From an uncultured Acidimicrobiales bacterium (GTDB taxonomy: Bacteria > Actinomycetota > Acidimicrobiia > Acidimicrobiales > VFJN01): DNA of 64,000 bases. The stretch lies in contig CAVWYL010000036.1 in NCBI GenBank assembly GCA_963759225.1, positions 77,786-141,785 on the forward strand. The letters are read 5' to 3'. The position numbers were made by a program, and so were the translations under genes. Shown here in pieces: positions 1,756 to 24,759 of this stretch (the stretch's first letter is position 1; each line of letters opens with the position of its first letter). A model generated the notes under the pieces. The model worked only from the letters and a program-made list of their open reading frames with translations. It searched no databases and was not told the DNA's origin.

Positions 1756-1761
1756 CACGAC

Positions 1762-2779: not shown

Positions 2780-2835
2780 CGCCCGGCCGCCGTCCGAACG
2801 CGAAGGTCACCGAGCCGCCGCGCGCCAACCTGCAC

Positions 2836-5058: not shown

Positions 5059-5077
5059 GCGGGGCCCTCGGCGGGCC

Positions 5078-6382: not shown

Positions 6383-7500
6383 ATGCTCTTGGCCATGTCG
6401 CTGCGCGCCCAGGTCGGACGATGGGGTCGGCGCGCCGTGCACGGGCCCTGGTCGGCCGAGCCCCGGCTGTCGCGCTACGAGCCGGAGTCGACGCTGGAGC
6501 TGCCCGCCCACCCGCGGCCGGCGGCTCGGTTCCGGGCGGTCGACGTCCACAACCACCTCGGGCGCTGGCTCAGCGGCGACGGCTCCTGGGTCGAGCCCGA
6601 CGTCGACCGCCTGCTGCGGGCCATGGACCGGTGCAACCTCGGCGCCGTCGTCAACCTCGACGGGCGGTGGGGCGCCGAGCTCGAGGAGAACCTCGACCGC
6701 TACGACCGCGCCCACCCCGGCCGCTTCGCCACGTTCTGCCACGTCGACTGGTCGGTGTGCGGCCGCGACGGGTTCGACGACCTCCCCCGCCAGCTCGCCG
6801 AGTCCGTCGGCCGGGGCGCCCGGGGCCTGAAGGTGTGGAAGGACCTCGGCCGGTCGCGTGCGCGACGCCGCGGGCCGGCTCGTGGCGCCCGACGATCCCC
6901 GCCTCGCCGGGCTGTGGCGGGCCGCCGCCGATGCGGGCGTCCCGGTGCTCGTCCACACCGCCGACCCGGTCGCGCACTTCCGCCCCGTCGACCGGCGCAA
7001 CGAGCGGCTGGAGGAGCTGCGGCGCTCGCCCGGGGCGTCGTGGGCCCGCTCCGGCCTGACCCACGGGCGAGCTCATGGCGTCGTTCGAGGCGCTGGTGCG
7101 GGCCAACCCCGCCACGACGTTCGTCGGCGCCCACATGGCCGGGTGGAGCGAGAACCTGGCGCAGGTGGGGGCGATGCTGGCCGACTGCCCCAACCTGTAC
7201 GTCGACGTGTCCGCCCGGGTCGGCGACCTCGGTCGCCAGCCGCGGGCGGCCCGGCGGCTGGTCACCGCCCACCCCGACCGGGTGCTGTTCGGCAGCGACG
7301 TCTACCCCCTGCGCCCCGACGAGCTCGCCATCTACTTCCGCTGCCTGGAGACCGACGACGAGTGCTTCGCCTACTCCGTGGAACAGCCCCCGCCCCGCGG
7401 GCGCTGGGAGATCTCCGGCCTGGCGCTGGACGAGCCCACGCTGCGGAAGGTCTACGCCGCCAACGCCCAACGGCTGCTACCCGGCCTCGGCGACGGCTAG
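6383..7500 (+). CDS. Amidohydrolase-2 family metal-dependent hydrolase (TIM barrel); two frame breaks
   Basis: The first segment, ..FRAVDVHNHLGRW (HxH motif)..AVVNLDGRWG..GARGLKVWKDLG, is in ORF 6203..8494. The second, VRDAAGRLVAPDDPRLAGLWRAAADAGVPVLVHTADP, is in ORF 6858..7550. The third, ..FVGAHMAGWSENL..LYVDVSAR..VLFGSDVYP, is in ORF 7075..7500. The breaks lie near 6850 and 7060. Confidence 0.65.
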
Positions 7501-8660
7501 GGCCGCCTCGTACGCGGCGCGGAGGTCGGCGCCTGCGCTCCGCCAGGTGAGCTCGTCCCGGCGGGCGAGCGCCCGGGACCGCATCGCCGCCAGGCGGGCC
7601 GGATCGGCGGCCAGCGCCGCCAGGTCGCCCGTCAGCGCGGCGACGTCGCCGGCGGCGGTGGACCAGCCCGTCGGCACCGTGGTCGACCGGCGCACCGGCG
7701 GCGTCGGACACGACCGGCACCGCCCCCGACGCCATCGCCTCGAAGACGACCAGGGCGCTGCCCTCGGTCACCGTGGGCAGCACGAGCACGTCGGCCCCGC
7801 GCAGCACGGCGCCGATGTCGGTGACGAACCCGAGCTCCTCGGCGCCCGCCTGCTGGAGCAGGCCGGCGATCACGGTCCGGTAGTCCGGCTGGATGCGGCC
7901 ACAGATCAGGAACCGGCCGGTGCCGCTGAGGCCCGCGTCGACGAAGGCACGCAGCGCGTCGTGCAGTCCCTTGTTCGGCTCCCCCCGTCCCACGAACGCG
8001 ACGGTGAACGGCCGCCCCGGTTCCCGCTCCGGCGGGGCCGGGAACGCCACCGGATCGAACCCGTAGCGGTGCCGGACCAGCCGCTCGGGGGCGTAGCCCC
8101 GCTCGACGAAGGTGCGCACGACGTAGTCGCTGGGGGCGAGCACGAGGTCCGCGGCGTCGAACTCGGCGTTCTCCGTGGCCAGCCGCTGCGGGTCGTCGCG
8201 GTGCGAGTGCCCCACCGGCACCTCGAGCCCGAGGTCGGCGGCGGCCCGGCCGGCGCGCTCGAACGCCGACGCGGTGTGCGGGCTCGGCGCCTCGCGCAGC
8301 GAGACGACGCCGGCCCGGCGAGCGGCGGCGAAGGTCGCCAGGCAGCCGCCCGGCCAGGCGTGGACGACGTCCGGGGCCTCGGGCGGCGCGGCGCAGCGCC
8401 CGCGCCACCATCCGGTCGTGCCACCGGTAGGCGCGGTCGACGCCCAGGGTCCGGTGCGGGACGCGCCGGCCGGCGACCCGCAGCGTCTCGGTGAAGGCGA
8501 CCCCGGCCGGGGGCGCGGCGGCGTTGAAGGTGCAGAAGACCCGCAGGTCCACGCCCGCCTCGGCCAGGCCGCGCACCTGGTTGAGCGCGGTCGTGCCGAT
8601 GCCGGGCGACCCCAGCGTGTGGGGGAAGCTGTACCAGACCCGCAGGGGCGTCGACGGCAC
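7477..8660 (-). CDS. Glycosyltransferase family 4 (second copy); two frame breaks
   Basis: GTG 8660 opens VPSTPLRVWYSFPHTLGSPGIGTTALNQVRGLAEAGVDLRV. This is followed by ..EAPDVVHAWPGGCLATFAAARRAG..ENAEFDAADLVLAPSDYVVRTF..FVGRGEPNKG..LVLPTVTEGSALVVFEAMASGAVPVVS, and then ..GDVAALTGDLAALAADPARLAAM..*. The first break is repaired by dropping one base of the run at 8381-8383. The second lies near 7690. Confidence 0.7.
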
Positions 8661-8668
8661 CGGTCGGC

Positions 8669-9296
8669 CTAGCGCTGCCGTTCGAGCTCGACCAGGCCGT
8701 CGCCCCCGGCGTCGGGGGCGAGCGCACGCCCACACGCCGCGCAGGTCAGGTCGTCGCCGAGCCGGGCGCCGCAGGTGCACACCCAGCCGATCTGCCGGGC
8801 CGGGTTGCCCACCACGAGGGCGTGGGCCGGGACGTCGCGGGTCACCACCGCGCCGGCCCCGACGAGGGCGTGGGGGCCGACGGTCGTGCCGCACACGACG
8901 GTGGCGTTGGCCCCGATCGTGGCGCCCGTGCGCACGGTGGTGGCCAGGAGCTCGTCCGCGGCCCTTCCGCACGTGCGCCCGGGGCTGATAGTCGTTGGTG
9001 AACACGACGTTGGGCCCGAGGAACACGTCGTCCTCGGCGGTCACGCCGTCGAAGACCAGCACGGCGTTCTTCACCGTGACACGGTCGCCGATGCGGGCCC
9101 CGCCCTCGACGAACGCGTGGTCGCAGATGTTGCAGTCGGCGCCGACGACCGCGCCGGGCAGCACGTGGGCCCAGGCCCAGACGCGGGTGCCGGGGCCGAC
9201 GTCGTCGCTCTCGCACAGCCCCTGGGGGTGGACGAAGACGCGGGGGTCGAGGGTCACGAGTGCACCCTTCGGCCGCACCGGTGACCCGATCGCCAC
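8669..9296 (-). CDS. Left-handed beta-helix sugar N-acetyltransferase, WbpD-like; one frame break
   Basis: ..VFVHPQGLCESDDVGPGTRVWAWAHVLPGAVVGADCNICDHAFVEGGARIGDRVTVKNAVLVFDGVTAEDDVFLGPNVVFTNDYQPRA is followed by RTGATIGANATVVCGTTVGPHALVGAGAVVTRDVPAHALVVGNPARQIGWVC. The layout follows the WbpD pattern (VFTN..PR, ARQIGW). The break lies near 8950. The true start may be GTG 9257. Confidence 0.65.
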
Positions 9297-9342
9297 TTCG
9301 TGGCGCAGGGCGGACTGTGCCTATGGACCTCGCGACGCTCGG

Positions 9343-10462
9343 TCATGCCGCCCCGCCCACGGCCGCCAGCAGCTCGCCCGCCACCCGCTCCTGCTGGGCG
9401 GCGGTGATGCCGGGGAACAGCGGCAGCGTCAGGATCTCGCCGGCCGCCGCCTCGGCCACCGGGAAGTCGCCGGGGCCGTGGCCCAGGTCGGCGTAGGCCC
9501 CGAGCAGGTGGACCGGGTGGGGGTAGTGGATGCCCGCCCCGATGCCGGCCCCCTGCAGCGTCGCCAGCACCGCGTCGCGCCGGGCGACCCGGACGACGTA
9601 GAGGTGCCACACGTGCTCGTTGCCGGGCAGCGTCGCCGGCAGGCCGACGCCGTCGTGGCCGCCCGAGCAGGTCGTCGTAGCGGCGCGGCGGCCTCCCGGC
9701 GCTGCTCGTTCCAGCCCGGCAGGCGGGCGAGCTTGGCCCGCAGCACCACCGCCTGGAGCGTGTCCAGCCGGGAGTTCATGCCGACGAGGTCGTGGTGGTA
9801 CTTGCGGGTGCCGCCGTGGTCCCGCAGGGCCCGCAGCGTGGCGGCGGTGGCGTCGTCGCCGGTGAGGACCGCGCCCGCATCGCCGTAGGCGCCCAGGTTC
9901 TTGCCCGGGTAGAAGCTGGTGCCGGCGACGACGCCCACGCCGCCGCTGCGCCGCCCGTGGTGGGTGGCGCCCTGCGACTGGGCCGCGTCCTCGACGAGGT
10001 CGACGCCGGGCGGCAGCACGTCCGCCAGGGCGTCGACCGGGGCCATCTGCCCGTAGAGGTGGACCGCCATGACGGCCCGGGTCCGGTCGGTGAGCGCCTT
10101 GGCCACGCAGCTCCGGGTCGATGAGCAGGTGGTCGGGGTCGCAGTCGACCAGCACGGGCTGGGCGCCGACCCGGCTGACCGCCTCGGCCGTGGCGACGAA
10201 CGTGTTGGCCGGCAGGATCACCTCGTCGCCGGGCCCGATGCCGCGGGCCCGCAGGGCCAGCTCGAGGGCGTCGGTGCCGTTGGCCACGCCGACGCAGTGG
10301 GCGGCGCCGGAGAACGCGGCGAACTCGTCCTCGAAGGCGGCCACGTCGGGGCCGAGGATGAAGGCGCCGGAGGCGGTCACCCGGTCCCAGCCGGCGGCCA
10401 CCTCGTCGGCCACTTGGGCGTGCTGGAGCTTCAGGTCGACCAGGGGGATGGGATCGGTTCAT
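9343..10462 (-). CDS. DegT/DnrJ/EryC1/StrS-family PLP sugar aminotransferase (WbpE/PglE-like); about four frame breaks
   Basis: ..IPLVDLKLQHAQVADEVAAGWDRV..FEDEFAAF..HCVGVANGTDALELALRA..VILPANTFVATAEAV continues as ..AVMAVHLYGQMAP..LVEDAAQSQGA..AGTSFYPGKNLGAYGDAGAV and then ..NEHVWHLYVVRV..GIHYPHPVH. ATG 10462 overlaps the upstream stop (ATGA). MNRS-IPLVDL is restored by dropping one base of the run at 10450-10452. Confidence 0.75.
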
Positions 10463-11155
10463 GGGGAGAGAACCTCTCGGGGGAGATCGACGGTGCGGAG
10501 GAAGCGGGCGGGCACGCCGGCCCAGACCTCGCCGGCCGGGACGTCGCGGGTGACGGCCGCGCCCATGCCGACGAGGGCCCAGGCGCCGACGGTGCAGGAC
10601 TCGCGGACGAGGCAGCCGGCACCCAGGTAGGCGCCGGTGCCGACGGTCACGCCGCCGGCCAGGCGGGCGCCGGAGCCGACGGTGACGAAGTCGCCGAGCA
10701 CGTCGTCGTGGGTGAGGACCACCTGGGGCATCAGGCCCACGTGGGCGCCGATGCGAGACGTCGGCGGTGGCGACCACGCCGGCCAGCACGACCGTGCCCT
10801 CGCCCACCGTGCACGACGGCGGCACCACGGCCGCCGGGTGCACCAGCGTGGCGTAGCGGGCCGGATCGAGGCCCAGGCGGGCGACGATCGCCCGCTTGGA
10901 GGTGAAGTCGGCCGGGTTGCCGGTGCAGACGACGACCCGGGCCGACGGCCGGTCGGCCGCCGTGTCCACGGGGCCGACGACGGTGGTGCCGCTGACCGCG
11001 GTGCCCCACCGGGCCGGGTTGTCGTCGAGGAAGCCGGCCAGGTCCCAGCGGGGACGGCCGTGGCGGTCGGCGTGGTCGGCGTTGACCGCCCGCACCACCT
11101 CGACCGTCTCGCGGCCGAAGCCGCCGGCCCCGACGACGAGCAGCGGCTCAGCCAC
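10459..11155 (-). CDS. PglD/NeuD-family sugar acetyltransferase (Rossmann-like N-domain plus hexapeptide repeats); one frame break
   Basis: GTG 11155 opens VAEPLLVVGAGGFGRETVEVVRAVN..LAGFLDDNP..VVCTGNPADFTSKRAIVARLG..VHPAAVVPPSCTVGEGTVVLAGVV. The sequence continues ..HVGLMPQVVLTHDDVLGDFVTVGSGARLAGGVTVGTGAYLGAGCLVRE. The break lies near 10750. Confidence 0.7.
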
Positions 11156-12437
11156 CGGCACCACGGCCGGCCTCGTCGACGACCCGGCGCACGATGGCCT
11201 CCACCGCCTGGCCGGACACGTCCCACGAGAGCGACCGCACGCTGGCGGCGGCGGCCACGGCATCGGCGTCGACCTCGGCCGGCGGCCGGGTGACGAGGCG
11301 GCCGAGCGCGTCGGCCAGGTCCTGGGCGGTCGGGGGCGTGTACGCGACGTGGTCGTTGTCGAGGACGATCCGGTTGTGGTCGGCGTCGTTGACGACCGGG
11401 GTGCAGCCCGCGGCCAGCATCTCGTGGGGCACGAGCGACACGTTCGTGGCCGACAGGACCAGGCCCGCGAGGCTGCGGTTGTAGAGCCGGCCCAGCTCGG
11501 CCGGGGTCATGACCCCGTGGTCGGTCGCGGGGAAGGGCATGCGCCCGACGGGGTCGCCGTAGAAGTGGATGTCGACGTCCGGGTGGCGGGACGAGAACAG
11601 CTCCAGCGCCAGCGCACCCAGGTCGAACGCCCGGCGGGGCGTGGTCGGCCGGGCGAAGAAGCACACGCCGGTGCGCCGGCCCGCGCCGCCGGAGGGGTCC
11701 TCCAGCCGGTAGTGGTCGAGGTCGCACCCGAAGTCGAAGTGGTCGGCGGGCATGCCGTACTCGGCGCGCAGCTTGCCGGAGAGCCACCGGCCGGCCGTGA
11801 TGCCGTGGAACCCGAACCCGTAGGTGGCCTCGGCCAGCAGCGCCTCGCCGCCGGCCGGGAAGAAGGAGGGCTCGAAGTCCTGGACGAAGTAGAAGCGCGC
11901 GCCCTTGGCCGGCGAGCCCGCGACCGCGTACGCGGTCGGCCATGCGGTGGCGATCACGGCGTGGGAGTCCTCGATGCCCGCCGCGGCGTCGCGCACCTCG
12001 GCCCGGACCCACGGCCACCACGAGCGCAGCACCCGCTCGTGGTCGTCGAGCGACCCGCCCCAGCGGTCGTAGAAGTAGAGGACGCACCGGTGCCCGGCCT
12101 GCTCGAGGGCGCCGACCATGCGCAGCATGGTGGTGTGGCCGCCGGACCCCTCGACGGGGGGCGTCATGACCCAGGCGACCGTCAGCGGCTCGCCCGGCAG
12201 GGCGGGCAGCGCGGCCGGGCGGGCGCCGGCCGCCTCGGCGGCCGCCACCACGTCCTCGCGGAGCACGTTGAGCATGTGGCTCGGCGGCGCCATCCGCTCG
12301 GACAGGCGGCGCAGCGCACGGGCGGCGACGCCGGAGGCGCCCTCGTGCTGCATCAGGCGGCGCGCCCGGCCCATCCTGCGGCCCACACTGCTCAGTGCGT
12401 CCATGCTCGACTCACTTCGCTCGCTTCGCTCGCTCAC
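11148..12437 (-). CDS. WsaF-like (rhamnosyltransferase-type) glycosyltransferase; intact
   Basis: ..PLTVAWVMTPPVEGSGGHTTMLRMV..CVLYFYD..ARFYFVQDFEPSFFPAGGE..GFHGITAGRWL..VCFFARPTTPRRAF. The YF.QDFEP motif is recalled from the WsaF family. The start is either GTG 12437 (it overlaps the flippase stop and reads VSERSERSESS) or ATG 12404 (MDALSS). Confidence 0.55.
   Translation of the reverse strand: MSERSERSESSMDALSSVGRRMGRARRLMQHEGASGVAARALRRLSERMAPPSHMLNVLREDVVAAAEAAGARPAALPALPGEPLTVAWVMTPPVEGSGGHTTMLRMVGALEQAGHRCVLYFYDRWGGSLDDHERVLRSWWPWVRAEVRDAAAGIEDSHAVIATAWPTAYAVAGSPAKGARFYFVQDFEPSFFPAGGEALLAEATYGFGFHGITAGRWLSGKLRAEYGMPADHFDFGCDLDHYRLEDPSGGAGRRTGVCFFARPTTPRRAFDLGALALELFSSRHPDVDIHFYGDPVGRMPFPATDHGVMTPAELGRLYNRSLAGLVLSATNVSLVPHEMLAAGCTPVVNDADHNRIVLDNDHVAYTPPTAQDLADALGRLVTRPPAEVDADAVAAAASVRSLSWDVSGQAVEAIVRRVVDEAGRGAGG
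12405..12437 (-). repeat. Junction repeat copy A: GTGAGCGAGCGAAGCGAGCGAAGTGAGTCGAGC
   Basis: The first 22 nt are identical to the copy at 47377. The TGA at 12436-12434 is the flippase stop. Confidence 0.8.
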
Positions 12438-13918
12438 GCCGCCACCTCCACGACCGGGGCCGGCGCCGCGACACGGAAGAGCTCGCCCCGCTGGTGCTGC
12501 CGCCACAACGGTAGGCCGACGACCAGGCCGTAGACCAGGGCCGACGCGAGCCCGCCGACGGCCAGCTGCGCGAAGTCCGTCGGGACCACGGCGAGGGCCG
12601 CCAGGGCGGTCAGCGCCATCAGGGCGCCGCCCAGCAGCGGCCGGGAGATCGGGCCGATGATCGACGCCGTCGTGACCCCGAGGCGGGACAGCGACCGCAT
12701 GAACGCCGGCATGACGACGACCAGCCAGCGCCAGCGACGTGACCCGCGGCCACCCCGGTGATGCCGCCGAGATGGGCCGCCACGATCAGCGTGGGGACGA
12801 GCGACACGAACCACAGCAGGTTGAGCCGCAGCGCCTCGTTGGACTTCCCCGCCGACACCAGGAAGTCGTAGGCGAGCTCGAGGGCCACCCGTGACGCGCC
12901 CAGCACCGCCAGGAACGCCAGCGGCCCGGCGGCGTCGGACCAGCGGGAGCCGTACACGAACCGCACGAGCGGGCCGCCCAGCACGCCGAGCAGCACGCAG
13001 GCGGGCACCACGGGCACGAACAGCATGCCGAGCGCCTGGCCGAAGCTCGCCCGGTAGCGCGGCGGTGTCGGCGCGCAGCTCGGAGAACGCCGGGAGGCTG
13101 ACGGCCCGCACGGTGGCGGAGAACGCCCCCACCGGCCAGCCCGACAGGTTGAAGGCGAGCACGTAGATGCCGAGCGCCGTCGGCCCGAGGACGTTGCCGA
13201 TCACGGCGTAGTCGACGTTCATCACCGCGAAGACCACGATGCTGGCGCCGGCCAGCGGCAGCCCGAACAGCAGGAGCCGGCGGGCCAGCGCCGCGTCCCA
13301 CGCCGGCCGGTAGCGCTTGGGAGCCAGCGCGAACGTGAAGGCGAACAGCACGATGTTGCCGATCACCCGCGACCAGGCGAGGCTCCAGGCCCCGAACCCG
13401 GCCGACGCCATGGCGATGGCCACCGCGGTCGTCACCGCGAACGACACCGTGTCGGCGATCAGCTTGCGGTCCTGGAGGAACTCGCGCTGGATGCAGGCCG
13501 ACGGCGTGGCCGAGAGGCCGGCGATGACGAGCGACAGGGCGAGGACCCGGATGGGGCCGGTGGCGGCCGGGGCCCCGAGGGCCTGCGCCAGCCACGGCGC
13601 CAGCAGCGCCATCAGCGCACCCAGGCCGACGCCCGAGGCCACGGAGAGGGTGGTGACGACCGGTGCGATGCGGTCGACCTCCTCGCGGTCCTTGGCCTGG
13701 ACGATGGCGACGCTCACCCCCAGCTCGCTGACGCTGATCACGACCGACAGCACCACGAGCGCGGCGGCGAACACACCGAACTCGGACGGTGCGATCAGCC
13801 GGGCCAGGACGATCCCGACGAAGAGCTGGCCGACCCGACCGATGATCGTGTTGACCGTGCTCCAGGCCAGGCCGCGGCCGACCTTGGCGCCCAGCGTGCG
13901 CTCGCGGCGCTCGCTCAC
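12434..13918 (-). CDS. Wzx-type oligosaccharide flippase (MOP/polysaccharide biosynthesis protein family); about three frame breaks
   Basis: GTG 13918 opens VSERRERTLGAKVGRGLAWSTVNTIIGRVGQLFVGIVLARLIAPSEFGVFAAAL, followed by 12-14 TM helices. The sequence continues in ORF 12619..13026 (LFVPVVPACVLLGVLGGPLVRFVYGSRW..) and returns to the first frame (..WLVVVMPAFMRSLSRLGV..). The breaks lie near 13050 and 12730. Confidence 0.7.
   Translation of the reverse strand: MSERRERTLGAKVGRGLAWSTVNTIIGRVGQLFVGIVLARLIAPSEFGVFAAALVVLSVVISVSELGVSVAIVQAKDREEVDRIAPVVTTLSVASGVGLGALMALLAPWLAQALGAPAATGPIRVLALSLVIAGLSATPSACIQREFLQDRKLIADTVSFAVTTAVAIAMASAGFGAWSLAWSRVIGNIVLFAFTFALAPKRYRPAWDAALARRLLLFGLPLAGASIVVFAVMNVDYAVIGNVLGPTALGIYVLAFNLSGWPVGAFSATVRAVSLPAFSELRADTAALPGELRPGARHAVRARGARLRAARRAGRPARAVRVRLPLVRRRRAAGVPGGAGRVTGGPRARLRLPGVGGEVQRGAAAQPAVVRVARPHADRGGPSRRHHRGGRGSRRWRWLVVVMPAFMRSLSRLGVTTASIIGPISRPLLGGALMALTALAALAVVPTDFAQLAVGGLASALVYGLVVGLPLWRQHQRGELFRVAAPAPVVEVAA
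13895..13918 (-). repeat. Junction repeat, weaker copy E: GTGAGCGAGCGCCGCGAGCGCACG (it forms the flippase start)
   Basis: It matches the consensus at 11 of the first 11 nt and again at GCGAGCG. Here it is clearly coding (VSERRERT). Confidence 0.5.
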
Positions 13919-13926
13919 CGGTGCCG

Positions 13927-16117: not shown

Positions 16118-17100
16118 CGGACGTGCGGCGCGTCTCGACCGCGGTCACCCGTCCGTCCTCGTCGCCGCTCGTTCTGCCACCAGTCGACGAGCCGGCGCAG
16201 GCCCTCGTCCAGGTCGACCTCGGCCACGAAGCCGAGCTTGCTCGCGGGCGGCGGCGGTGTCGGCCAGGCGCCGGGACACGGGGTTGACCTTGCGCTCGGG
16301 GCCGTACTCGGGCTCGAGGTCCGAGCCCATGACCCGCAGCAGCGCGTCGGCCAGGCCCCGCAGGCTGGTCTCGACGCCCGAGGCCACGTTGAACACCTCG
16401 TCGGTGACCGGCGCCACCGCGGCGGCGATGTTGGCCCGGGCCACGTCGTCGACGTACACGAAGTCCATGGTCTGCAGCCCGTCGCCCAGGATGAGCGGCG
16501 GCTGGCCGGCGGCGATGCGCTCCATCCACCGCACCAGCACCTCGGTGTAGACGCCGAAGATGTCCATGCGGGGGCCGTAGACGTTGAAGTAGCGCAGGGC
16601 CACGTAGTCGAGGTCCGTACATGTCGTTGAAGCTGCGCAGCAGGCCCTCGTTGAACGCCTTGGCCGCCCCGTACAGGGTGCGGTTGGCGTAGGGGTGCTG
16701 GGACTCGGTGGTCGGGAACTGCGTCGGCCAGGCCGTACACGGAGGCCGAGGACGCCACGACCGCCTTGCGCACGCCGGCGTCGACCGCCGCCTCGACGAC
16801 GTTGAAGGTGCCGTCGACCAGCACCTCGAGCGCCAGGCGGGGCTCCTCCGCGCACTGGGTGATGCGGATGGCGGCCTGGTGGAACAGGACGTCCACGCCG
16901 CTCATGACCTTGGCCACGGTCTCGCGGTCGCGGATGTCGCCCTCGACGATCTCGACCTTGCCGGTCGCGATCGCCGAGGCCAGGTTGGCGCGGCGGCCGC
17001 GGACGAAGTTGTCGAGCACGACGATGTCGACGTCGGCGGTGCGGGCCAGACGGTCGGCGATGGTGGAGCCGATCATGCCGGCGCCGCCGGTGATCAGCAC
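16114..17100 (-). CDS. NAD-dependent sugar-nucleotide epimerase/dehydratase (extended SDR); three frame breaks
   Basis: VLITGGAGMIGSTIADRL..VVLDNF..GDIRD..LFHQAAI..VVASSASVYG continues as ..YGAAKAFNEGLLRSF, then ..YVALRYFNVYGPRMD..DFVYVDDVARA, then ..LDEGLRRLVDWW. The Gly-rich NAD motif and the YxxxK motif are both present. The breaks lie near 16730, 16615 and 16260. An alternative GTG at 17150 has an AGGAGG 4 nt upstream but is out of frame. Confidence 0.75.
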   Translation of the reverse strand: MLITGGAGMIGSTIADRLARTADVDIVVLDNFVRGRRANLASAIATGKVEIVEGDIRDRETVAKVMSGVDVLFHQAAIRITQCAEEPRLALEVLVDGTFNVVEAAVDAGVRKAVVASSASVYGLADAVPDHRVPAPLRQPHPVRGGQGVQRGPAAQLQRHVRTSTTWPCATSTSTAPAWTSSASTPRCWCGGWSASPPASRRSSWATGCRPWTSCTSTTWPGPTSPPRWRRSPTRCSTWPRASRPACGAWPTRCCGSWARTSSPSTAPSARSTPCPGAWPTPPPPASKLGFVAEVDLDEGLRRLVDWWQNERRRGRTGDRGRDAPHVR

Positions 17101-17206
17101 GCGCGCGCCGTCCAGCGTGGACGGAGCGAAGCTGGGGAGAGTTCGGTCACGGGGCCTCCTCGGCCGAGTCGCGGTTCAGGTCGGGAGCGGGATATGTCTG
17201 TGACGA

Positions 17207-18271
17207 TCAGCCGGGCAGGGCGACGAGCGCACCACCCTGGTCGAGGCTGCGGCCCACGGCGTCGAGCACCTGGAGCACCCACAGCCCGGACTCGCCGCTG
17301 GTGGCGGCGGGCCGGCCCTCACGCACGGCCGAGATCATCTCGCGGATGACGCCGCCCAGCGCCTCCGCCTCCGGCAGCGCGGGAGCCACCATGTCGCCGA
17401 TGCGGTACGAGATCAGCGTGTCGCGGCGGGCCTCGACGTTCATCGCGCCCGTCAGCTCGACGCCCCGGTCGTGCACCGTGAGGCGCTGGGCCGGGTTCAT
17501 GTCGTCCCACACCAGCATCCGGCGGGACCCGCCGACGTGCATGGTGCGCACCTTGGTCGGGCTCAGCCAGTTGACGTTGACGTGCGCCATGCCGCCGTTG
17601 GCCAGCGGCATGGTCAGGTAGCCGACGCAGGACCGCTCGGCGCCGATGGGGTCGGCGCCGTGCGCCGCCACCGCCACGGGGCGGGCGTCGGCCGGCAGCA
17701 CGAAGTCGAGGATCGACAGGTCGTGGGGCGCCAGGTCCCAGAACACGTCGACGTCCTGCTGCACCAGCCCGAGGTTGATGCGGATGGAGTCGACGTACTG
17801 GATGTCGCCCACGTCGCCGGCGGCGACCATGTCACGGATGTGCCGCACCGTCGGCGTGTAGCAGTAGGTGTGGTCGCACATCAGCACGAGGCCGGCGTCG
17901 GCCGCCACCTCGACCAGCTTGCGCCCGTCGTCGACGGAGGTGGCCAGCGGCTTCTCCACGATGACGTGCTTGCCGGCCTCGAGGCAGGCCAGCGCGACCG
18001 GCACGTGGGTGTGGGCCGGCGTGGCGACGGCCACGACCTGGACGGTGGGGTCGTCGAGCACGGTGTCGAGCGAGTCGGTGACCTGCACCGCGCTCTGGCG
18101 CCCGACGGCCTTGCGGGCCCGGCCGACGTCGAGGTCGCACACCCAGCGCAGGTCCGCGTCGTCGGTCTTCAGGATGTTGCGGATGAGGTTGGGGCCCCAG
18201 TAGCCCGCACCCACCACGGCGAAGCCGAGGGGGGCGGGGTCGGTGGGGAGGTCGGGTGAGGGGGAGCTCAC
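17207..18271 (-). CDS. Gfo/Idh/MocA-family NAD(P) oxidoreductase (WbpB-like sugar-nucleotide 3-dehydrogenase candidate); intact
   Basis: VSSPSPDLPTDPAPLGFAVVGAGYWGPNLIRNI..VVAVATPAHTHVPVALACLEAGKHVIVEKPLA..MCDHTYCYTP. GTG 18271 overlaps the stop of the DUF4082 gene (GTGA). Confidence 0.75.
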   Translation of the reverse strand: MSSPSPDLPTDPAPLGFAVVGAGYWGPNLIRNILKTDDADLRWVCDLDVGRARKAVGRQSAVQVTDSLDTVLDDPTVQVVAVATPAHTHVPVALACLEAGKHVIVEKPLATSVDDGRKLVEVAADAGLVLMCDHTYCYTPTVRHIRDMVAAGDVGDIQYVDSIRINLGLVQQDVDVFWDLAPHDLSILDFVLPADARPVAVAAHGADPIGAERSCVGYLTMPLANGGMAHVNVNWLSPTKVRTMHVGGSRRMLVWDDMNPAQRLTVHDRGVELTGAMNVEARRDTLISYRIGDMVAPALPEAEALGGVIREMISAVREGRPAATSGESGLWVLQVLDAVGRSLDQGGALVALPG

Positions 18272-21200
18272 GAACCCTCCTGGAAGGCGATGTCGACCCA
18301 GTAGTTGCCGGCGTTGAAGGTGCCGGTCGGGAAGCCGCCGCCGCTGCCGTAGCGGTAGACGCCGTTCCCGCCGTCGACCCCGTTGGCGAGCGCGTGGATC
18401 ACGCCGTTGTCCACGCCCTGGGTCGAGAAGTAGCCGCCGTTGACCGCGTAGCGGCCCTGCGGGGCGTAGTAGGACACCACGTAGGTGGTGCCCGGGGCCA
18501 CGGCGACCGGGTTGGTGAAGTTGGCCTGCTGCCACCCGGTGCCCGACTCGTTGGTGAAGGTCACCTGGCCGAGCAGGGCGCCGTCGGACCGCCACACGCT
18601 GCCGACGTGGGAGCCGCCGTTGCCGGCGCCCTTGTAGAACCGGACGCCGACGACCAGCCCGGCCGCGTCGACCCGGAACTTGGTGCCGACCTCGATGGCC
18701 GCGCCGTCGTTGGCCGCCGTCACCGCCGGGACCGTGGTGGGGGTCCAGAAGCTGAGCACGCCCGCCGGCCACGGTGGCGAACGACCAGGCGTGCGCCGCC
18801 GCCATGGCGTTGCCCGCCGCGTCGCGGGCGCCGTTGACCCGGGCGGTGAAGGTGTGGGCCGTGGCCAGGGCCGCCGAGGGCGTGAACGTGGCCGTGCGGG
18901 TGTTGGCGTCGTAGGCCCACGACCCGCCCACGTTGGCGCCGGCGGTGTCGTCCCGCAGCGTGAAGGTCAGGTTGGCCGTGTCGACCGACTCGCCGAAGGT
19001 GGCGATGACCGGGGTGTCGGTGGCCACGCCGGTGGCGTTGGCCGCCGGGGTGGTGGCGATGACGGTCGGGCCGGTGGTGTCGACGAACACGACGTCCACG
19101 CCATACCAGGACGAGTTGTAGCTGCCGGTCGGGAACCCGCTGGTGGCGCCGTAGCGGAACACGCCGTTGCCGCCGTCGACGCCGTTGCGCAGGGCCTCCA
19201 GCGGGGCGCGGACCACGCCGGCGGCCGCGAACTTGTTGGCCTCCACCGAGTAGCGCCCGACCGGGGCGTGGTACGAGACCACGTACGTCTGGCCGGCGGT
19301 CACCGGGATGGGCGAGGCGAAGTTGGCCTGCTGCCAGCCGCTCGCCGTCTCGGTCGTGAAGGCGACCTGGCCGAGCGGGGTGCCGTCGGACCGCCACAGG
19401 TTGCCCACGTGGGCGCCGGTGTTGCCCGGGCCCTTGTAGAACCGGACGCCGCCCACGTGGCCGTGGCTGGCGGCCCGGAACTTGAGGCCGACCTCGATGC
19501 CGCCGCTGTCGTTGGCCGCCGGGGTGGCGGGCACGACCGAGCTGTCCCAGATGGTGGCGGGCACCCCGCCCGGCGCGGTGACCGTGGTGAACTGCCAGAC
19601 CACCGGGGCCGGCATGGCGTTGCCCTTGGTGTCGGACGCCGACACGGACGCCGTGTACACGGTGGCCTGGGCCAGCGCCCCCGACGGCGTGAACGTGGCC
19701 GTCTTCGTGGCCGCGCTGTAGCTGACCGCGCCGGCGACCGCGCCGCCGGGGCCGGTGAGCGTGAAGGCGAGCGACGCCGTGGCGATCGCTTCGTCGAAGG
19801 TGGCGGTCACCACGCTGTTGGTGGTGACGCTCACCAGCCCGATGCCCGGCGAGCGGTCGAGGACGACCGGACCGGTGGTGTCGGGCGGGATGACGAACAC
19901 GACGTCCACCGCGTAGTTGGTGTCGTTGTAGCTCGACGTGGGGACGCCGGAGGCGCCGTAGCGGAACACGCCGTTGCCGCCGATGGTGTTGCCCCGGGGG
20001 ATCCTGATCGCCCCGCGGCCCTTGTCGGCCGCCCCGAACTCGTTGGGGGTGGCCGAGTAGCCGCCGGCCGGCGCGTAGTACGACGCGATGTAGCTCTGGC
20101 CCGCGGTCACGGGCACCGGCGTCGGGAAGTTGGCCTGCTGCCAGCCGGTCTCGCTCTCGTCGACGAAGGTGGCCGTCGAGAGCAGGGTGCCGTCGAGCTT
20201 CCACAGGTGGCCGACGTGGCCGCCGCTGTTGGACGGGCCCTTGTAGAAGCGCACGCCCTTGATGAGGCCGCTGAGGTTCGGGATGAACTTCACGCCCAGC
20301 TCGACGGCCAGCGTGTCGGTGACCGAGGGCGTGGCCGGGGTGACCGACGTGTCCCACACGGTGAGGGGGTACGAGTCGTTCGTGCCGGTGGTGGTGAACG
20401 TCCACTCGACCGGGGCCGCCATCGGCGTGCCGGCGCGGTCGCGGGCGGTCACGACGCGGGCCGTGTAGGTGGTCACCGTGTCCAGCGGAGCCTCGGGCGT
20501 GAAGGTCGCCCGGCGGGTGGCGGTGTCGTAGGCCACGGCGCCGGGGACCGAGACGCCGCCCGGCCCGATGCAGGTCGATGTCGATCGAGCTGCCGGTCAT
20601 CGCCTCGCTGAAGCGGACGCTGATCGTGGGGTCGAGGCGCACGCCGTCGAGCCCGGGGGCCGGGTTGCGGTCGACGACGGTCGGGGCCCGGTGGTCGTCG
20701 ATGTCGAAGACCACGTCGACCCAGTAGTTGGTGGCGTTGAACGACGAGTCGGGGAAGCCGGTCGAGCCGTAGCGGAACACGCCGTTGGGGCCGTCCTCGG
20801 CCACCGACAGGGCCCGCAGCGGCCACACGTCGTAGGCGCTGTTGAAGTAGCCGACGTCGCCGGCGTAGTGCCCGTTGGGCGCGTAGTACGAGACGATGTA
20901 GGTCGTGTTCTTGGACACGGCGACCGGGTTCGGGAACAGCGCCTGCTGCCAGCCGGACGCGGTCTCGCCGGTGAAGGTGACCGTGGCGAGCGGGGCGCCG
21001 CCGAAGGCGCTCCACAGGTGGCCGACGTGGGTGCCGGTGTTGCCCGCGCCCTTGTAGAAGCGCACGCCGGTGACGAAGCCGTCCTCGACGGTGCGGAACT
21101 TGACGCCCAGCTCCAGCGGCCCGTTGTCGGCGATGGAGGGGCGGATCGGGGTGATCGAGGAGTGCCAGATCGACGCCGGGAAGGCGCGGGGGCCACCGGT

Positions 21201-23068
21201 GATGGTGACGCCCGGGCCGGGCGTCTCGGTGTTCACGCTGTCGTCGATGGCGCGCGACCGGATCGTGAGGGGCCCGAGCGCCGTGGGGATGAAGACGAAG
21301 CTCCACGACGTGGTGCCCGCGGCCCGCTTCCAGGTGGTGCCGCCGTCGACCGACACCTCGACCGCGGCGACCACGCCGCCGACGTCGGAGGCGGTGCCCG
21401 TGACCGTCAGCGGCGACCCGACCGGCACGGTGGTGCCGGCGACCGGGAAGGTGACGGTGGAGACCGGGGCCGTGTGGTCGGTGGACGTGGACGGCATGGT
21501 CAGGCCCGACTGCAGCGTGGCGGGCAGGGAGCCCATGTCGGCCAGCATGTTGGCCGTGGCCTGCTGCATGCGGGCCTGGGGGGCGCCGCCGGTGCGGGGA
21601 TGGGTGTCGTCGAGGCCCCACGACCACTGGCAGGTGCCGGTGCCCCACACGAGCGCGCCGCTGGGGGCCCGGTACAGGGTGAGGCGGTGGGTGGCGGGCT
21701 GCGCGTGGTAGCTGCCGCCCTCGTCGACGAGCACGGCGGGGACCGTCTCGGTCGTGGACGTCAGCTCGAGCAGGCCGGGGGGCTTGGGGCCGACGTCGCG
21801 GTCGTCGTCCCACTCGTAGCCGAGCGTGCCCTGGGTGAGCGAGATGGTCGACCCGTTGGGCATCGACGCCACGTCGGTGTGGCGCCAGAACCGCAGCGCC
21901 TTGTACTGCGACGGGACCTTGATCGTGAGGTCGGGCGCGGACTCGTCGTTGATGGCGCCGAAGATCTGCCCGATGAGCGGGAGCTCGGGCCGGCCGCCGT
22001 CGGACGGCGGGCTGAAGCGGGCGTCACGCCAGGTTCCGGTCCAGGCGGGGGTGGGGTCGAGCTTGGCGCCCTCGAGCGTCTCCTTGTAGCAGACGAGGGT
22101 GCGGCGCGGCGTGTTGGTGCCGTCGACGCTGTTCTCCCAGCGGACCTTCCAGAACACCTCGTTGCCGGCCATGAAGACGACGTTGACGCCGGCGTCGCGG
22201 GCGGCCTCGACGTTGGCCCGCTGGGCGGCCGACCAGTACTCGTCGTGGCCCGAGGAGATGAACACCTTCTTGTTGAGCATCAGCGAGCCGCGGAAGTCGC
22301 TGTCGACGTCGGAGGTGTAGCTGACGTTGTAGCCGTTGCGCTCCAGCCACCGGACGAGCGGGTACTCGGCGTCCCAGAAGGCGTTGCCGTTGCCGTTGAT
22401 CTGGAACGGGCGGTTGTAGCTGACCTTGTGGGCCCGGCCGCCGTTCTCGGCCCAGTACAGGCTGGCGCCGCCCCAGCGGTTGTAGGCGTGCATCGTCGTG
22501 TCGGACGTCTGCAGCAGGACGTCGGCGGCGCGGCTGTCGTTGCGCACGACGAACAGGATCCGGTTCTCGCCCGAGTTGTCGAGGCGCTGGATGTTGGCGG
22601 TGTAGACGCCGGACACGGCGTTGGCCGGGACCGCCCACGAGGCGGACACGGCCCAGTTGCCGCAGTCGACGAGGCCGGTGGCGGCGTCGACGATCGGGTT
22701 GGGCTGGTTCTGGGGCAGCGGGACCGACGGCATGATCTCGGCCACCCGCCGGGCGCCGAGGCCGCCGTACCAGCCCATCCGGTAGATGCGGATGCGGTAG
22801 TTGGTGGAGGGGGTCTTGATCTTGAACCGGATGGTCTCGCCCGCGTTGACGCTGAACTGCGTGGCGAAGCCCTCGATGCTCGAGTCCTCGAAGGAGTCCC
22901 ACTCGCTGGAGGGCGCCCCCGGGAGGGCGTTCTCCACGGACACTGCGTTGGGAGCGGCCGAGGCTTCCCCGCCGAGCACCCCCATCATCCCGACCGCGCC
23001 CGCGCTGGCCGCGGCGCCCTTCAGGAACGAGCGCCGTCCGAACGCGCCGAAGAACGCGGACCCGCCAT
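18268..23068 (-). CDS. Giant (about 1,600 aa) Tat-secreted multidomain protein; about four frame breaks. Domains: a DMFase-large-subunit-like N-domain, one Ig-like domain, and four DUF4082 modules separated by Ig-like (SbsA/Big_5-type) domains
   Basis: The Tat motif RRSFLKGAAASAGAVGMMGVLGGEASAA is followed by ..YRMGWYGGLGARR..YNRWGGASLYW..FISSGHDEYWS... Four modules then follow the type ..ELGVKF....V.GVRFYKG.GN.G.HVG.LW...G..L..V.F..E..SGWQQA.F..PV.V..G..Y..SYY.P.G.Y......NGVFRYG...FP...........DVVF. The frames switch near 23030, 20560 and 18770. Placement of the start codon is uncertain. Confidence 0.7.
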
Positions 23069-23294
23069 CAGCGATTCGTGGCCGTCCTGGCCTGAATTGC
23101 CGCCCATCGCCCTTTCCGCCCTATCTCTGTCCCGGCCAAGCCGCGCCACCGGACGCGACTTGACCGGGGTCTCGTGCCGGGCACAGTTCTGCCCGAGCTT
23201 CCCTGTGAGTCTCGGGATGGTTCCTGAAGCGGGGCTGAAGGACCACTGAAGCCGTACTGAGACTTCCGGCCAGGGAGTTCGCGTTGACGAACCG

Positions 23295-24759
<1,465 letters not shown>

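What the first reader, a model, noticed from the sequence alone, without database searches (positions are those of the whole stretch)
7477..23068. A 15.6-kb, 11-gene co-directional operon: a giant secreted DUF4082 protein leads straight into a glycan-synthesis gene train
From 23068 down to 7477 every gene is on the minus strand. The junctions are overlaps or very short gaps:
- GTGA at 18268-18271;
- ATGA at 16114-16117;
- TGATG at 14970-14974;
- an 8-nt gap at 13919-13926;
- GTGA at 12434-12437;
- an 8-nt overlap at 11148-11155;
- ATGA at 10459-10462;
- an 8-nt gap at 8661-8668.
Only two spacers are longer: 55 nt at 17151-17206 (or 106 nt, 17101-17206, if GTG 17100 is the epimerase start) and 46 nt at 9297-9342.

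A structural or secreted protein translationally coupled to sugar-nucleotide enzymes, a flippase and a WsaF-type transferase suggests the locus may make and decorate its own surface (S-layer-like) glycoprotein. WsaF in Geobacillus acts in S-layer glycan synthesis. This is a speculative inference.
Basis: partly seen in the sequence, partly recalled or inferred. Interest (0 to 1): 0.6.

Follow-up and report, generated by a model that had tools for sequence, protein, structure and literature searches.

The report
Surface-glycan operon led by secreted amidase
This is a real one-directional cluster of 11 genes for an amino-sugar surface polymer, headed by a large exported enzyme-like protein and conserved in many bacteria, but in this draft genome at least 20 single-base assembly errors break 9 of the 11 genes, and the idea that the big protein is a self-glycosylated S-layer protein is not supported.

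Summary
**Observation.** All coding signal from about 23107 to 7477 is on the minus strand. The "genes" are not open reading frames, though. Nine of the 11 are split over 2-4 frames by at least 20 frame switches, mostly +1-nt insertions relative to two relatives whose genes are intact.

**Cause of the breaks.** The same defect runs genome-wide: about 1850 sites (0.39/kb), and the essential rpoB is split over three frames. I read these as assembly consensus errors, not pseudogenes.

**Linkage.** The gene order is kept in two close Acidimicrobiia relatives. Of 80 loci holding homologues of the giant protein, 30 carry at least 3 of the 5 core sugar-nucleotide genes within 10 kb. These span four or more phyla.

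**The giant protein.** It looks like an enzyme, not an S-layer protein:
- It has a Tat signal.
- Its head folds like dimethylformamidase and N-acetyl-β-phenylalanine acylase, and all four active-site residues are invariant.
- Four DUF4082/Ig β-sandwich modules follow the head.

**Most likely role (inferred).** It trims N-acyl groups from the exported diamino-sugar polymer.

This scan reached the same reading for this family on other genomes. I found no published study.

The parts
18268..23107 (-). Giant exported protein, about 1600 aa. Domains: Tat signal (GRRSFLKGAAA), DMFase-like amidohydrolase head, Big_7 Ig domain, then four DUF4082 modules separated by Big_5 Ig domains. It is read in four frame pieces: f2 23107 to about 23056, f0 to 20569, f2 20568-18766, f1 18765-18268.
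   Evidence: Pfam finds DMFA2_C at 326.7 bits, Big_7, 4x DUF4082 and 3x Big_5, spread over three frames. tblastn with the intact 1676-aa L002 protein changes frame at 20571/20560 and 18770/18753. The start region is shown.
17207..18271 (-). GFO/IDH/MocA oxidoreductase (sugar 3-dehydrogenase-like), 354 aa. It is intact. Its GTG start overlaps the giant gene's TGA (GTGA).
   Evidence: Pfam GFO_IDH_MocA. It is 90% identical to L001's protein in one frame. The best NCBIfam hit is UDP-GlcNAc 3-dehydrogenase, but below the cut-off.
16114..17150 (-). SDR sugar-nucleotide epimerase/dehydratase. It is broken by +1 insertions at 16723, 16614 and 16241, and by small indels at the start (about 17141/17131). 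Its stop is either 16114 or 16145.
   Evidence: The Pfam Epimerase profile matches positions 1-128 in f1 and 151-240 in f2.
14972..16117 (-). DegT/DnrJ/EryC1 aminotransferase no. 1. It is broken by +1 insertions at 15782, 15463 and 15162.
   Evidence: The Pfam profile matches positions 4-106 (f2), 107-210 (f1), 216-302 (f0) and 310-359 (f2).
13927..14972 (-). Family-2 glycosyltransferase. One frame switch near 14090.
   Evidence: Pfam Glycos_transf_2. tblastn shifts from f0 to f1 at 14091/14076.
12434..13918 (-). MOP/Wzx-type flippase (Polysacc_synt_3). Frame switches at 13066 and about 12729.
   Evidence: Pfam. tblastn runs f2, f1, f2.
11148..12437 (-). WsaF-like glycosyltransferase. It is intact. 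An extra GTGAGCGAGCGAAGCGAGCGAAG... stretch sits at its 5' end that L001 lacks.
   Evidence: WsaF_C scores 49.4 bits (cut-off 27). WsaF_N scores 21.9 bits, below the cut-off.
10459..11155 (-). NeuD/PglD-family sugar N-acetyltransferase. One +1 insertion at 10757.
   Evidence: Pfam PglD_N and Hexapep in two frames. L001's orthologue passes TIGR03570 at 168 bits against a cut-off of 160.8.
9343..10462 (-). DegT aminotransferase no. 2. There is an extra A right after the ATG (10459), and frame switches at about 10110 and at 9684/9665.
   Evidence: Pfam DegT in f1 and f0.
8669..9296 (-). Left-handed beta-helix (hexapeptide) acetyltransferase no. 2. One frame switch at about 8963. Its start is GTG 9296 or GTG 9257.
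   Evidence: Pfam Hexapep in f0 and f2. tblastn.
7477..8660 (-). Family-4 glycosyltransferase. Frame switches at about 8393 and about 7658. Relatives L001 and L002 lack it and have an opposite-strand CE4 deacetylase at this position.
   Evidence: Pfam Glyco_trans_1_4. HMM segments. Relatives' gene maps.
23032..23265 (-). Non-coding leader between gatA and the giant gene. It is the only sizeable upstream spacer.
   Evidence: The HMM calls this a non-coding segment. No consensus promoter was found.
1..5085 (+). Companion plus-strand glycan genes: a priming sugar transferase (Bac_transf, cut by the window edge), a GT4 (frame-shifted at 1122), a Wzz-like gene with no Pfam hit, a Wzy_C protein (3146-4225) and a putative rhamnosyltransferase (4228-5055).
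   Evidence: Pfam. HMM segments.

Best explanation
**What it is.** The stretch is a Wzx/Wzy-type cell-surface glycan locus of an Acidimicrobiia-like metagenome-assembled genome.

**Gene content.** Eleven co-directional, tightly abutted minus-strand genes encode:
- a large Tat-exported protein;
- two amino-sugar branches: a GFO 3-dehydrogenase-like enzyme and an SDR enzyme, two DegT aminotransferases, and a NeuD/PglD-type plus a second hexapeptide N-acetyltransferase;
- three glycosyltransferases (GT2, WsaF-like, GT4);
- a Wzx flippase.

The priming transferase, a Wzy_C protein and further glycosyltransferases lie in the adjacent plus-strand block.

**The large protein.** It is an enzyme, not a structural glycoprotein. 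Its head is homologous to the iron amidohydrolases dimethylformamidase and N-acetyl-(R)-beta-phenylalanine acylase, and it keeps the two Tyr, the Glu and the His of their active site. Its tail is four DUF4082 beta-sandwich modules spaced by Ig domains.

**Proposed role (inferred, not shown).** After export it binds the polymer through the DUF4082 modules and hydrolyses N-acyl (acetyl or formyl) amide bonds of the di-N-acylated sugars. This would be analogous to what PgaB, IcaB and PelA do for other polymers.

**The broken frames.** The roughly 20 frame breaks in this copy are consensus errors of the assembly, not biology. In the organism the genes are most probably intact and co-transcribed.
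For: **Shown**
- Strand, gene content and junctions.
- Intact genes in the same order in relatives L001 and L002.
- Window-specific +1-nt insertions, with both relatives agreeing against the window at 8 sites.
- Genome-wide frame switching. There are 1850 sites, or 0.39/kb. The Illumina-type contig L001 has 0 in 13 kb. This locus has 19 in 15.6 kb, which puts it in the top 1.1% of windows.
- Essential rpoB is split over three frames and completeness is 73%.
- Each frame piece keeps GC3 above 0.9, has no in-frame stops and is 75-94% identical in amino acids to L001.
- Linkage: 30 of 80 homologue loci carry at least 3 of 5 core genes at 55-70% identity, across four or more phyla and in different gene orders. 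On the protein tree the linkage is scattered over many clades.
- In this genome the cassette and the giant gene each occur once, together.
- Head domain:
  - Pfam DMFA2_C scores 326.7 bits.
  - The AF2 model has pLDDT 91.
  - The top Foldseek hits are 8i5a/8huy and 6lvb/6lvd, at E about 1e-19 and TM 0.65-0.68.
  - A profile search of PDB sequences gives E 4.5e-16 for the acylase and 3e-10 for DMFase.
  - DMFase Y399, Y440, H519 and E521 are the Fe ligands and the essential His (PMC7686228). They align to the family-invariant Y167, Y176, H246 and E248.
- Tat motif RRSFLK.
- The DUF4082+Big_5 unit models as two beta-sandwiches at pLDDT 95.5.
Against: - Both the 'assembly error' reading and co-transcription are therefore inferences.
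- The locus has three times the genome's mean density of frame breaks. Some real decay, or strain mixing at this variable locus, cannot be excluded.
- The substrate of the amidase head is unknown. The residue mapping rests on a profile alignment, and the Y399 segment scores weakly. I did not check it by superposition.
- DUF4082 has only weak structural neighbours: a phage central fibre at TM 0.41 and the N-terminal domains of GH2 enzymes at about 0.23. Sugar binding is therefore a guess.
- 30 of the 80 homologue loci show none of the nine cassette genes queried, and 29 of the 41 loci with at most one core gene also show none of a second panel of 11 glycan genes within 10 kb. Examples are Rhizobiales, Arthrobacter and Actinoplanes.
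- None of the sugar-nucleotide enzymes reaches an NCBIfam equivalog cut-off except the NeuD-family acetyltransferase.
Confidence: 0.6

Rival explanations
1. One reading: the giant DUF4082 protein is a structural, S-layer-like surface protein, and the downstream enzymes glycosylate it. In this view it is the substrate of the operon, not an enzyme of it.
For: - It is exported, large and repetitive, with Ig-like spacers.
- It is co-conserved with glycan genes.
- A Wzy_C-family protein lies nearby (3146-4225). This family also includes O-oligosaccharyltransferases such as the S-layer O-OTase WsaB.
- A WsaF_C-type glycosyltransferase is present.
Against: - It has no SLH, S-layer or cell-wall-anchor domain.
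- The head keeps a complete amidohydrolase active site, invariant over 51 sequences from several phyla. A purely structural protein would have no reason to keep this.
- The WsaF-like gene is present in only 8 of the 30 cassette loci.
- No rml (rhamnose) genes lie in the operon.
- A flippase plus Wzz-like and Wzy genes point to a polymer pathway.
Confidence: 0.12
2. The frame breaks are real. In this view the locus is a recently decayed set of pseudogenes, and this lineage no longer makes the glycan.
For: - The locus has 19 frame switches in 15.6 kb against a genome mean of 6.1, which puts it in the top 1.1% of windows.
- The insertions are specific to the window relative to two relatives.
Against: - The same kind of break occurs about 1850 times genome-wide, including twice in essential, single-copy rpoB.
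- There are no nonsense codons.
- GC3 has not decayed, and amino-acid identity to relatives is 75-94% within every frame piece.
- The breaks are almost all +1 insertions, which is a typical error signature rather than a mutational spectrum.
Confidence: 0.07
3. The giant protein is an enzyme, but its target is not the locus's own polymer. It might be a peptidoglycan or peptide amidase, a scavenging acylase for environmental N-acyl compounds, or a weapon against other cells' surfaces. In this view its position next to the glycan genes reflects shared regulation or export only.
For: - 29 of the 41 homologue loci with at most one core gene show none of the 11 glycan genes I searched for within 10 kb.
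- The two characterised relatives act on small molecules: DMF and N-acetyl-beta-phenylalanine.
- The best structural neighbour of the DUF4082 unit is a mycobacteriophage central fibre.
Against: - Adjacency to the same five sugar-nucleotide genes recurs in different gene orders and phyla. Shared regulation alone does not explain that well.
- In the Acidimicrobiia group the giant gene's stop overlaps the next gene's start.
Confidence: 0.2
4. The frame changes are decoded biologically, by programmed ribosomal frameshifting or transcript slippage on a genome-wide scale.
For: - Within several genes the shifts sum to zero modulo 3. The epimerase and DegT1 have three +1 shifts each. The flippase and DegT2 also return to their starting frame.
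Against: - There is no shared slippery motif at the sites.
- Other genes have a net shift of 1 or 2: the giant gene, GT2, both acetyltransferases and GT4.
- Relatives encode the same proteins in one frame.
- Low completeness (73%) fits a poor consensus.
Confidence: 0.01

Closest known systems
N,N-dimethylformamidase large subunit (Paracoccus sp. DMF; PDB 6LVB/6LVD/6LVE; PMC7686228)
   Same: - The fold of the roughly 500-aa head matches: Foldseek E about 1e-18, TM 0.66-0.67.
- Profile-level sequence homology: E 3e-10.
- Fe ligands Y399, Y440 and E521 and the essential H519 align with invariant residues of this family.
   Different: - This protein is exported by Tat.
- It carries an Ig domain and four DUF4082/Ig modules.
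- I saw no small-subunit gene beside it, but I did not search for one.
- It sits in a glycan operon.
- Identity is only about 12-16%.
- The substrate is unknown, and DMF is not a natural compound.
N-acetyl-(R)-beta-phenylalanine acylase (PDB 8I5A, 8HUY, 8I59)
   Same: - It is the best fold match (E 4e-19, TM 0.68) and the best sequence-profile match (E 4.5e-16).
- It hydrolyses an N-acetyl amide, which is the chemistry proposed here.
   Different: - I take it to be cytoplasmic and to act on a small amino-acid substrate (from the molecule name and my own knowledge, not checked here).
- Neither Foldseek nor the sequence profile aligned the DUF4082 tail to it.
- It is not known to be associated with glycan genes.
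Post-export polysaccharide de-N-acetylases (PgaB, IcaB, PelA, Agd3; mostly CE4-type) - from general knowledge
   Same: The proposed job is the same: an extracytoplasmic enzyme, encoded inside the biosynthesis operon, that removes N-acetyl groups from the exported amino-sugar polymer.
   Different: - The fold and metal site are unrelated: 2-Tyr-1-carboxylate Fe against the CE4 His/His/Asp metal site.
- No activity has been shown here.
- Relatives L001 and L002 additionally carry a separate CE4 (Polysacc_deac_1) gene next to the cluster.
   Same: - A WsaF_C-type glycosyltransferase is present (49 bits).
- A Wzy_C-family protein lies nearby.
   Different: - There is no S-layer or SLH protein.
- No rmlABCD genes lie in the operon.
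- A Wzx flippase replaces the ABC transporter.
- The WsaF_N domain is below its cut-off.
- The WsaF-like gene is not part of the conserved core.
Di-N-acetylated sugar pathways WbpB/WbpE/WbpD (2,3-diacetamido sugars) and PglF/PglE/PglD (bacillosamine) - from general knowledge
   Same: The enzyme families occur in the same combination: a GFO dehydrogenase, a DegT aminotransferase and an LbH acetyltransferase; and an SDR enzyme, a DegT aminotransferase and a NeuD/PglD acetyltransferase.
   Different: - No equivalog-level match exists except for the NeuD family.
- I saw no UDP-GlcNAc 6-dehydrogenase.
- The actual sugars are unknown.

Membership tests
DMFase / N-acyl amino-acid acylase amidohydrolase family (Pfam PF20254 DMFA2_C) | Match to the family profile above the curated cut-off | tested here: met
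   DMFA2_C scores E 3.3e-97 and 326.7 bits against a cut-off of 27, covering profile positions 1-370 of 374.
DMFase / N-acyl amino-acid acylase amidohydrolase family (Pfam PF20254 DMFA2_C) | Same three-dimensional fold as the solved members | tested here: met
   The AF2 model has pLDDT 91.3. Foldseek places 8i5a, 8huy and 6lvb/d/e at ranks 1-9, with E 4e-19 to 5e-17 and TMq 0.57-0.68.
DMFase / N-acyl amino-acid acylase amidohydrolase family (Pfam PF20254 DMFA2_C) | 2-Tyr-1-carboxylate iron site (Y399, Y440, E521) plus the essential His (H519) | tested here: met
   - In the profile alignment to 6lvb these residues pair with Y167, Y176, E248 and H246 of the head domain.
- All four are invariant in 51 sequences.
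- Their roles are described in PMC7686228.
- The Y399 segment aligns with a low score, and I did not check it by superposition.
DMFase / N-acyl amino-acid acylase amidohydrolase family (Pfam PF20254 DMFA2_C) | Amide-hydrolysing activity and bound iron | not testable with these tools
   This needs protein biochemistry.
Wzx/Wzy-dependent polysaccharide pathway | Priming phosphoglycosyl transferase, Wzx flippase and Wzy polymerase encoded together | tested here: inconclusive
   - Bac_transf is present at 3-260, and Polysacc_synt_3 at 12434-13918.
- A Wzy_C protein is present at 3146-4225, but that Pfam family also covers ligases and O-oligosaccharyltransferases.
- The Wzz-like ORF at 1807-2478 has no Pfam hit.
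S-layer glycoprotein glycosylation locus (Geobacillus slg type) | An S-layer structural protein (SLH or other S-layer domain) as the glycan acceptor | tested here: not met
   In the giant protein Pfam finds only DMFA2_C, Big_7, DUF4082 and Big_5, plus two matches below their cut-offs: TAT_signal and Mo-co_dimer (the latter lies over the Ig domain).
S-layer glycoprotein glycosylation locus (Geobacillus slg type) | WsaF-type rhamnosyltransferase with dTDP-rhamnose supply and ABC-type export | tested here: not met
   - WsaF_C is above its cut-off, but WsaF_N (21.9 bits) is below it.
- No Rml-type hits appear among the locus genes.
- Export is by a MOP/Wzx flippase.
WbpB/E/D- and PglF/E/D-type di-N-acetyl sugar pathways | Equivalog-level identity of the dehydrogenase, aminotransferase and acetyltransferase | tested here: inconclusive
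   - Only TIGR03570 (NeuD/PglB/VioB acetyltransferase) passes, at 168 bits against a cut-off of 160.8.
- UDP-GlcNAc 3-dehydrogenase scores 126 against 450.
- PseC scores 287 against 423.
Operon (single transcript) | Co-transcription across all junctions | not testable with these tools
- There is only indirect support: overlapping or short junctions, the same in L001, and no consensus promoter or terminator. That scan is uninformative at 74% GC.

The most novel reading that the evidence does not exclude
The DMFase-like head with DUF4082 modules may be a previously unrecognised class of extracytoplasmic, iron-dependent polysaccharide N-deacylase. It would be fold-unrelated to the CE4 enzymes. 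It would have co-evolved with a portable five-gene diamino-sugar cassette across at least four bacterial phyla, and would set the charge of a widespread but undescribed surface polymer.
Probability: 0.4. Interest if true: 0.65.

Novelty: new variant of a known kind. Interest (0 to 1): 0.45.

Why it matters
There are two lessons.

**A practical one.** This genome's consensus carries about 0.4 frame-breaking indels per kb, and three times that in this locus. Any ORF-level reading of it must be checked against relatives. That includes gene starts, overlaps, "missing start codons" and "long open multi-frame stretches".

**A biological one.** A very large family of about 1600-aa secreted proteins is physically tied, in many phyla, to a conserved cassette for di-N-acylated amino sugars.
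- The family keeps the unusual 2-Tyr-1-carboxylate iron site, which so far is known only from a solvent-degrading enzyme and an industrial acylase.
- That gives this enzyme class a plausible natural role, editing N-acyl groups on surface glycans.
- It also points to culturable genera (Streptomyces, Microbacterium, Nocardioides, Leifsonia) in which the role could be tested.

Tried and rejected
- **Reads and RNA.** I therefore had no read pile-ups and no RNA evidence for the indels or the operon.
- **PDB sequence search with the whole giant protein.** phmmer matched only the Ig domain, to sulfite oxidase. A profile of the head domain was needed.
- **Literature.**
  - 'DUF4082' gave two passing mentions.
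  - 'PF13313' gave none.
  - 'dimethylformamidase' with 'glycosyltransferase' and 'gene cluster' gave none.
- **Consensus promoter and terminator scan.** It found nothing in 6800-23400. This is uninformative at 74% GC.
- **NCBIfam naming of the sugar enzymes.** Only the NeuD-family acetyltransferase passed a cut-off, so I name no specific sugar.
- **The epimerase in a single frame.** tblastn gave 49% identity in f1. I rejected this: Pfam, GC3 and the DNA alignment show three +1 shifts, and identity is 89-94% in the right frames.
- **Cassette-linked giants as one orthologous clade.** I rejected this. The linkage is scattered on the tree, and well-supported branches force at least 8-10 changes.
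- **Real pseudogenisation and programmed frameshifting.** I considered both and rated them unlikely (see the rival explanations).
- **Scan of metagenome contigs for the indel sites.** I did not run it. The nearest public relatives are only about 81% identical in DNA, so it could not separate error from mutation.

Full report
**1. What is in the sequence**

The window is about 74% G+C. At that composition ORF lists are useless, because many long overlapping ORFs appear in all six frames. I therefore used third-codon-position GC, a seven-state codon-position HMM, and Pfam on every stop-to-stop minus-strand frame.

All coding signal between about 23107 and 7477 is on the minus strand.
- a giant DMFA2_C/Big_7/DUF4082/Big_5 protein
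- a GFO oxidoreductase
- an SDR epimerase/dehydratase
- a DegT aminotransferase
- a GT2 glycosyltransferase
- a Polysacc_synt_3 flippase
- a WsaF-like glycosyltransferase
- a PglD/NeuD-type acetyltransferase
- a second DegT aminotransferase
- a second hexapeptide acetyltransferase
- a GT4 glycosyltransferase

**2. The genes are not open reading frames here**

Pfam profiles are spread across frames.
- DegT no. 1 matches profile positions 4-106 in frame 2, 107-210 in frame 1, 216-302 in frame 0 and 310-359 in frame 2.
- The epimerase matches 1-128 in one frame and 151-240 in another.
- The giant protein's domains lie in three frames.

tblastn with proteins of two relatives switches frame at the same points.

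The HMM illegitimate same-strand frame switches inside the locus. These are switches with no stop codon of the upstream frame nearby. Further breaks lie at the very start of the giant gene. There the Met-containing frame stops at 23020-23022, while the Tat motif RRSFLK is in another frame. More lie at the epimerase start and directly after the DegT2 ATG.

Only the GFO gene (17207-18271) and the WsaF-like gene (11148-12437) are intact.

**3. Errors or pseudogenes?**

Two relatives carry the same genes intact and in the same order:
- L001, a JGI soil contig, is 81% identical in DNA over 11 kb.
- L002, a 627-kb ENA contig, is 77% identical.

At the break points the window has exactly one extra nucleotide inside otherwise conserved coding sequence.
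- Both relatives agree against the window at 16723, 16614, 16241, 15782, 15463, 15162, 13066 and 10757.
- L001 shows the same at 18761, about 12729 and 9684/9665.

The phenomenon is genome-wide.
- There are 1850 such switches in 4.77 Mb (0.39/kb), against 0 in the 13-kb L001 control.
- The rest of this window runs at 0.41/kb.
- The essential single-copy rpoB gene is split over three frames. rpoC is intact.
- Estimated completeness is only 73%.

Within each frame piece GC3 stays above 0.9, there are no nonsense codons, and amino-acid identity to L001 is 75-94%.

Together this indicates a poorly polished consensus, not decay.

The locus has three times the mean density, which places it in the top 1.1% of 15.6-kb windows. 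My inference is locally poorer consensus, for example from strain variation at a surface-glycan locus.

**4. Is the giant protein really tied to the glycan genes?**

Homologues of the intact 1676-aa L002 protein number in the thousands. They are annotated only as "DUF4082 domain-containing protein".

I kept 80 loci with 10-kb flanks. tblastn with L001's nine glycan proteins gave the following:
- 30 of 80 loci carry at least 3 of the 5 core sugar-nucleotide genes: GFO, SDR, DegT1, PglD-type acetyltransferase and DegT2.
- These genes are 55-70% identical to L001's.
- In 26 of the 30 loci nearly all the hits lie on the giant gene's strand; in the other four (L011, L055, L068 and one more) they are all on the opposite strand.
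- The lineages include Streptomyces, Kitasatospora, Nocardioides, Microbacterium, Leifsonia, Isoptericola, Umezawaea, Actinokineospora, Micromonosporaceae, Solirubrobacterales, Acidobacteriota, Pseudomonadota MAGs and Cyclobacterium (Bacteroidota).
- Gene order differs. In Micrococcales and Propionibacteriales the order is giant, GFO and onward. In Streptomyces it is GFO-SDR-DegT-PglD-DegT-giant-GT2.

Clustering of neighbouring ORFs also recovers a priming Bac_transf gene (11 loci) and a Wzy_C gene (10 loci).

In this genome both the cassette and the giant gene occur once, together. The chance expectation is therefore about 0.5% per 25-kb window.

On a tree of the head domain the linked copies are scattered over many clades. 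The association is therefore not one inherited block.

The link is not universal.
- 30 loci show none of the nine cassette genes queried.
- Of the 41 loci with at most one core gene, 29 also show none of a second panel of 11 glycan genes. These include Rhizobiales, Arthrobacter and Actinoplanes.

The linkage stands.

**5. What the giant protein is**

*Head domain.* An AF2 model of residues about 47-545 is confident, with pLDDT 91.
- Its only strong PDB neighbours are N-acetyl-(R)-β-phenylalanine acylase and the dimethylformamidase large subunit, at E about 1e-19 and TM 0.65-0.68.
- A profile of 51 head domains finds the same two by sequence, at E 4.5e-16 and 3e-10.
- In DMFase the Fe(III) is held by Y399, Y440 and E521, and H519 is essential (PMC7686228).
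- In the alignment these pair with Y167 (AYN), Y176 (SLY), and H246 and E248 (GHDEYW). All four are invariant in the family.

*Export.* An RR-x-FLK Tat signal fits export of a folded, metal-loaded enzyme. This is an inference.

*Tail.* The DUF4082+Big_5 unit models as two β-sandwiches at pLDDT 95.5. Its structural neighbours are only weak:
- a mycobacteriophage central fibre
- the sugar-binding N-domains of GH2 enzymes
- CopC, which matches the Ig part

The protein has no SLH, S-layer or anchor domain.

*Proposed mechanism.*
- Shown: the architecture, the conserved active site and the genomic linkage.
- Inferred: the protein docks on the exported polymer through the DUF4082 modules and hydrolyses N-acyl amides of its diamino sugars.

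**6. The pathway**

The enzyme set implies two amino-sugar branches: a GFO dehydrogenase with a DegT and an LbH acetyltransferase, and an SDR enzyme with a DegT and a NeuD/PglD acetyltransferase. This follows from general knowledge of the WbpB/E/D and PglF/E/D pathways. Only the NeuD-family acetyltransferase passes an NCBIfam cut-off, so I do not name the sugars.

The plus-strand block at 1-5085 supplies the priming transferase, another GT4, a Wzz-like ORF, a Wzy_C protein and a putative rhamnosyltransferase. The whole 23-kb region is therefore one Wzx/Wzy-type glycan locus.

**7. Comparison with what is known, and novelty**

The cluster is a normal kind of locus. The unusual element is the DMFase-type exported enzyme, for which I found no publication.

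After I had reached this reading, a look-up showed that this scan had already reported the same family and the same interpretation on several other genomes. That is a repeat, not independent evidence.

I rate the finding "new variant of a known kind". It is a glycan operon with a post-export modifying enzyme of a new fold class. Interest is moderate. This copy is a poor exemplar because of the assembly errors.

**8. Verdict**

- Observation: partly confirmed.
- Interpretation: partly supported. The link holds; the S-layer glycoprotein idea does not.
- Best explanation confidence: about 0.6. Locus identity and assembly error are at about 0.85. N-deacylation of the locus's own polymer is at about 0.4-0.45.

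Noticed in passing
whole genome G000, e.g. C32:70-3479 (rpoB): The genome carries about 1850 frameshift-like frame switches (0.39/kb). rpoB is split over three frames and completeness is 73%. Other notes on this genome probably reflect the same consensus errors, for example 'gatA has no in-frame start' and 'Wzz runs into Wzy through a stretch open in several frames'.
   Followed up: partly
window 12405-12437 and 13908-13918 (minus strand): The WsaF-like gene's 5' end carries an extra GTGAGCGAGCGAAGCGAGCGAAGTGAGTCGAGC stretch that is absent from L001. The flippase start also reads GTGAGCGAGCGCC. I have no explanation for it.
   Followed up: no
window 9258-9342: About 85-90 nt lie between DegT2 and the second acetyltransferase. 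L001 has no counterpart: there the two genes overlap by 4 nt.
   Followed up: no
window 7477-8660 versus L001:11511-12287 and L002:19428-20228: The window ends the operon with a GT4 glycosyltransferase. Both close relatives instead have an opposite-strand CE4 polysaccharide deacetylase (Polysacc_deac_1) at that position.
   Followed up: no
window 456-1581 (+) and 6434-7467 (+): The GT4 gene changes frame at 1122 (N-domain in one frame, C-domain in another). The Amidohydro_2 gene changes frame twice. These are further examples of the assembly's indels outside the locus.
   Followed up: partly
L002 (ENA contig_7009) 3921, 4134, 8910, 18330: The relative L002 also shows four frameshift-like switches. 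Its GFO gene is truncated and its second DegT gene is called at only 145 aa. It is probably another long-read assembly with residual indels.
   Followed up: no
homologues P0122-P0240: Many family members add further domains to the same head and DUF4082 core. These include CopC-like, LamG (Laminin_G_3), fibronectin-III and PKD-like Ig domains, and in one case a Kelch/galactose-oxidase-like module. Lengths reach about 2900 aa.
   Followed up: no
window 5087-5903 (-): A small right-handed beta-helix protein (weak Pfam Beta_helix hit, also frame-split) lies between the two glycan blocks. It could be a glycan lyase or hydrolase.
   Followed up: no
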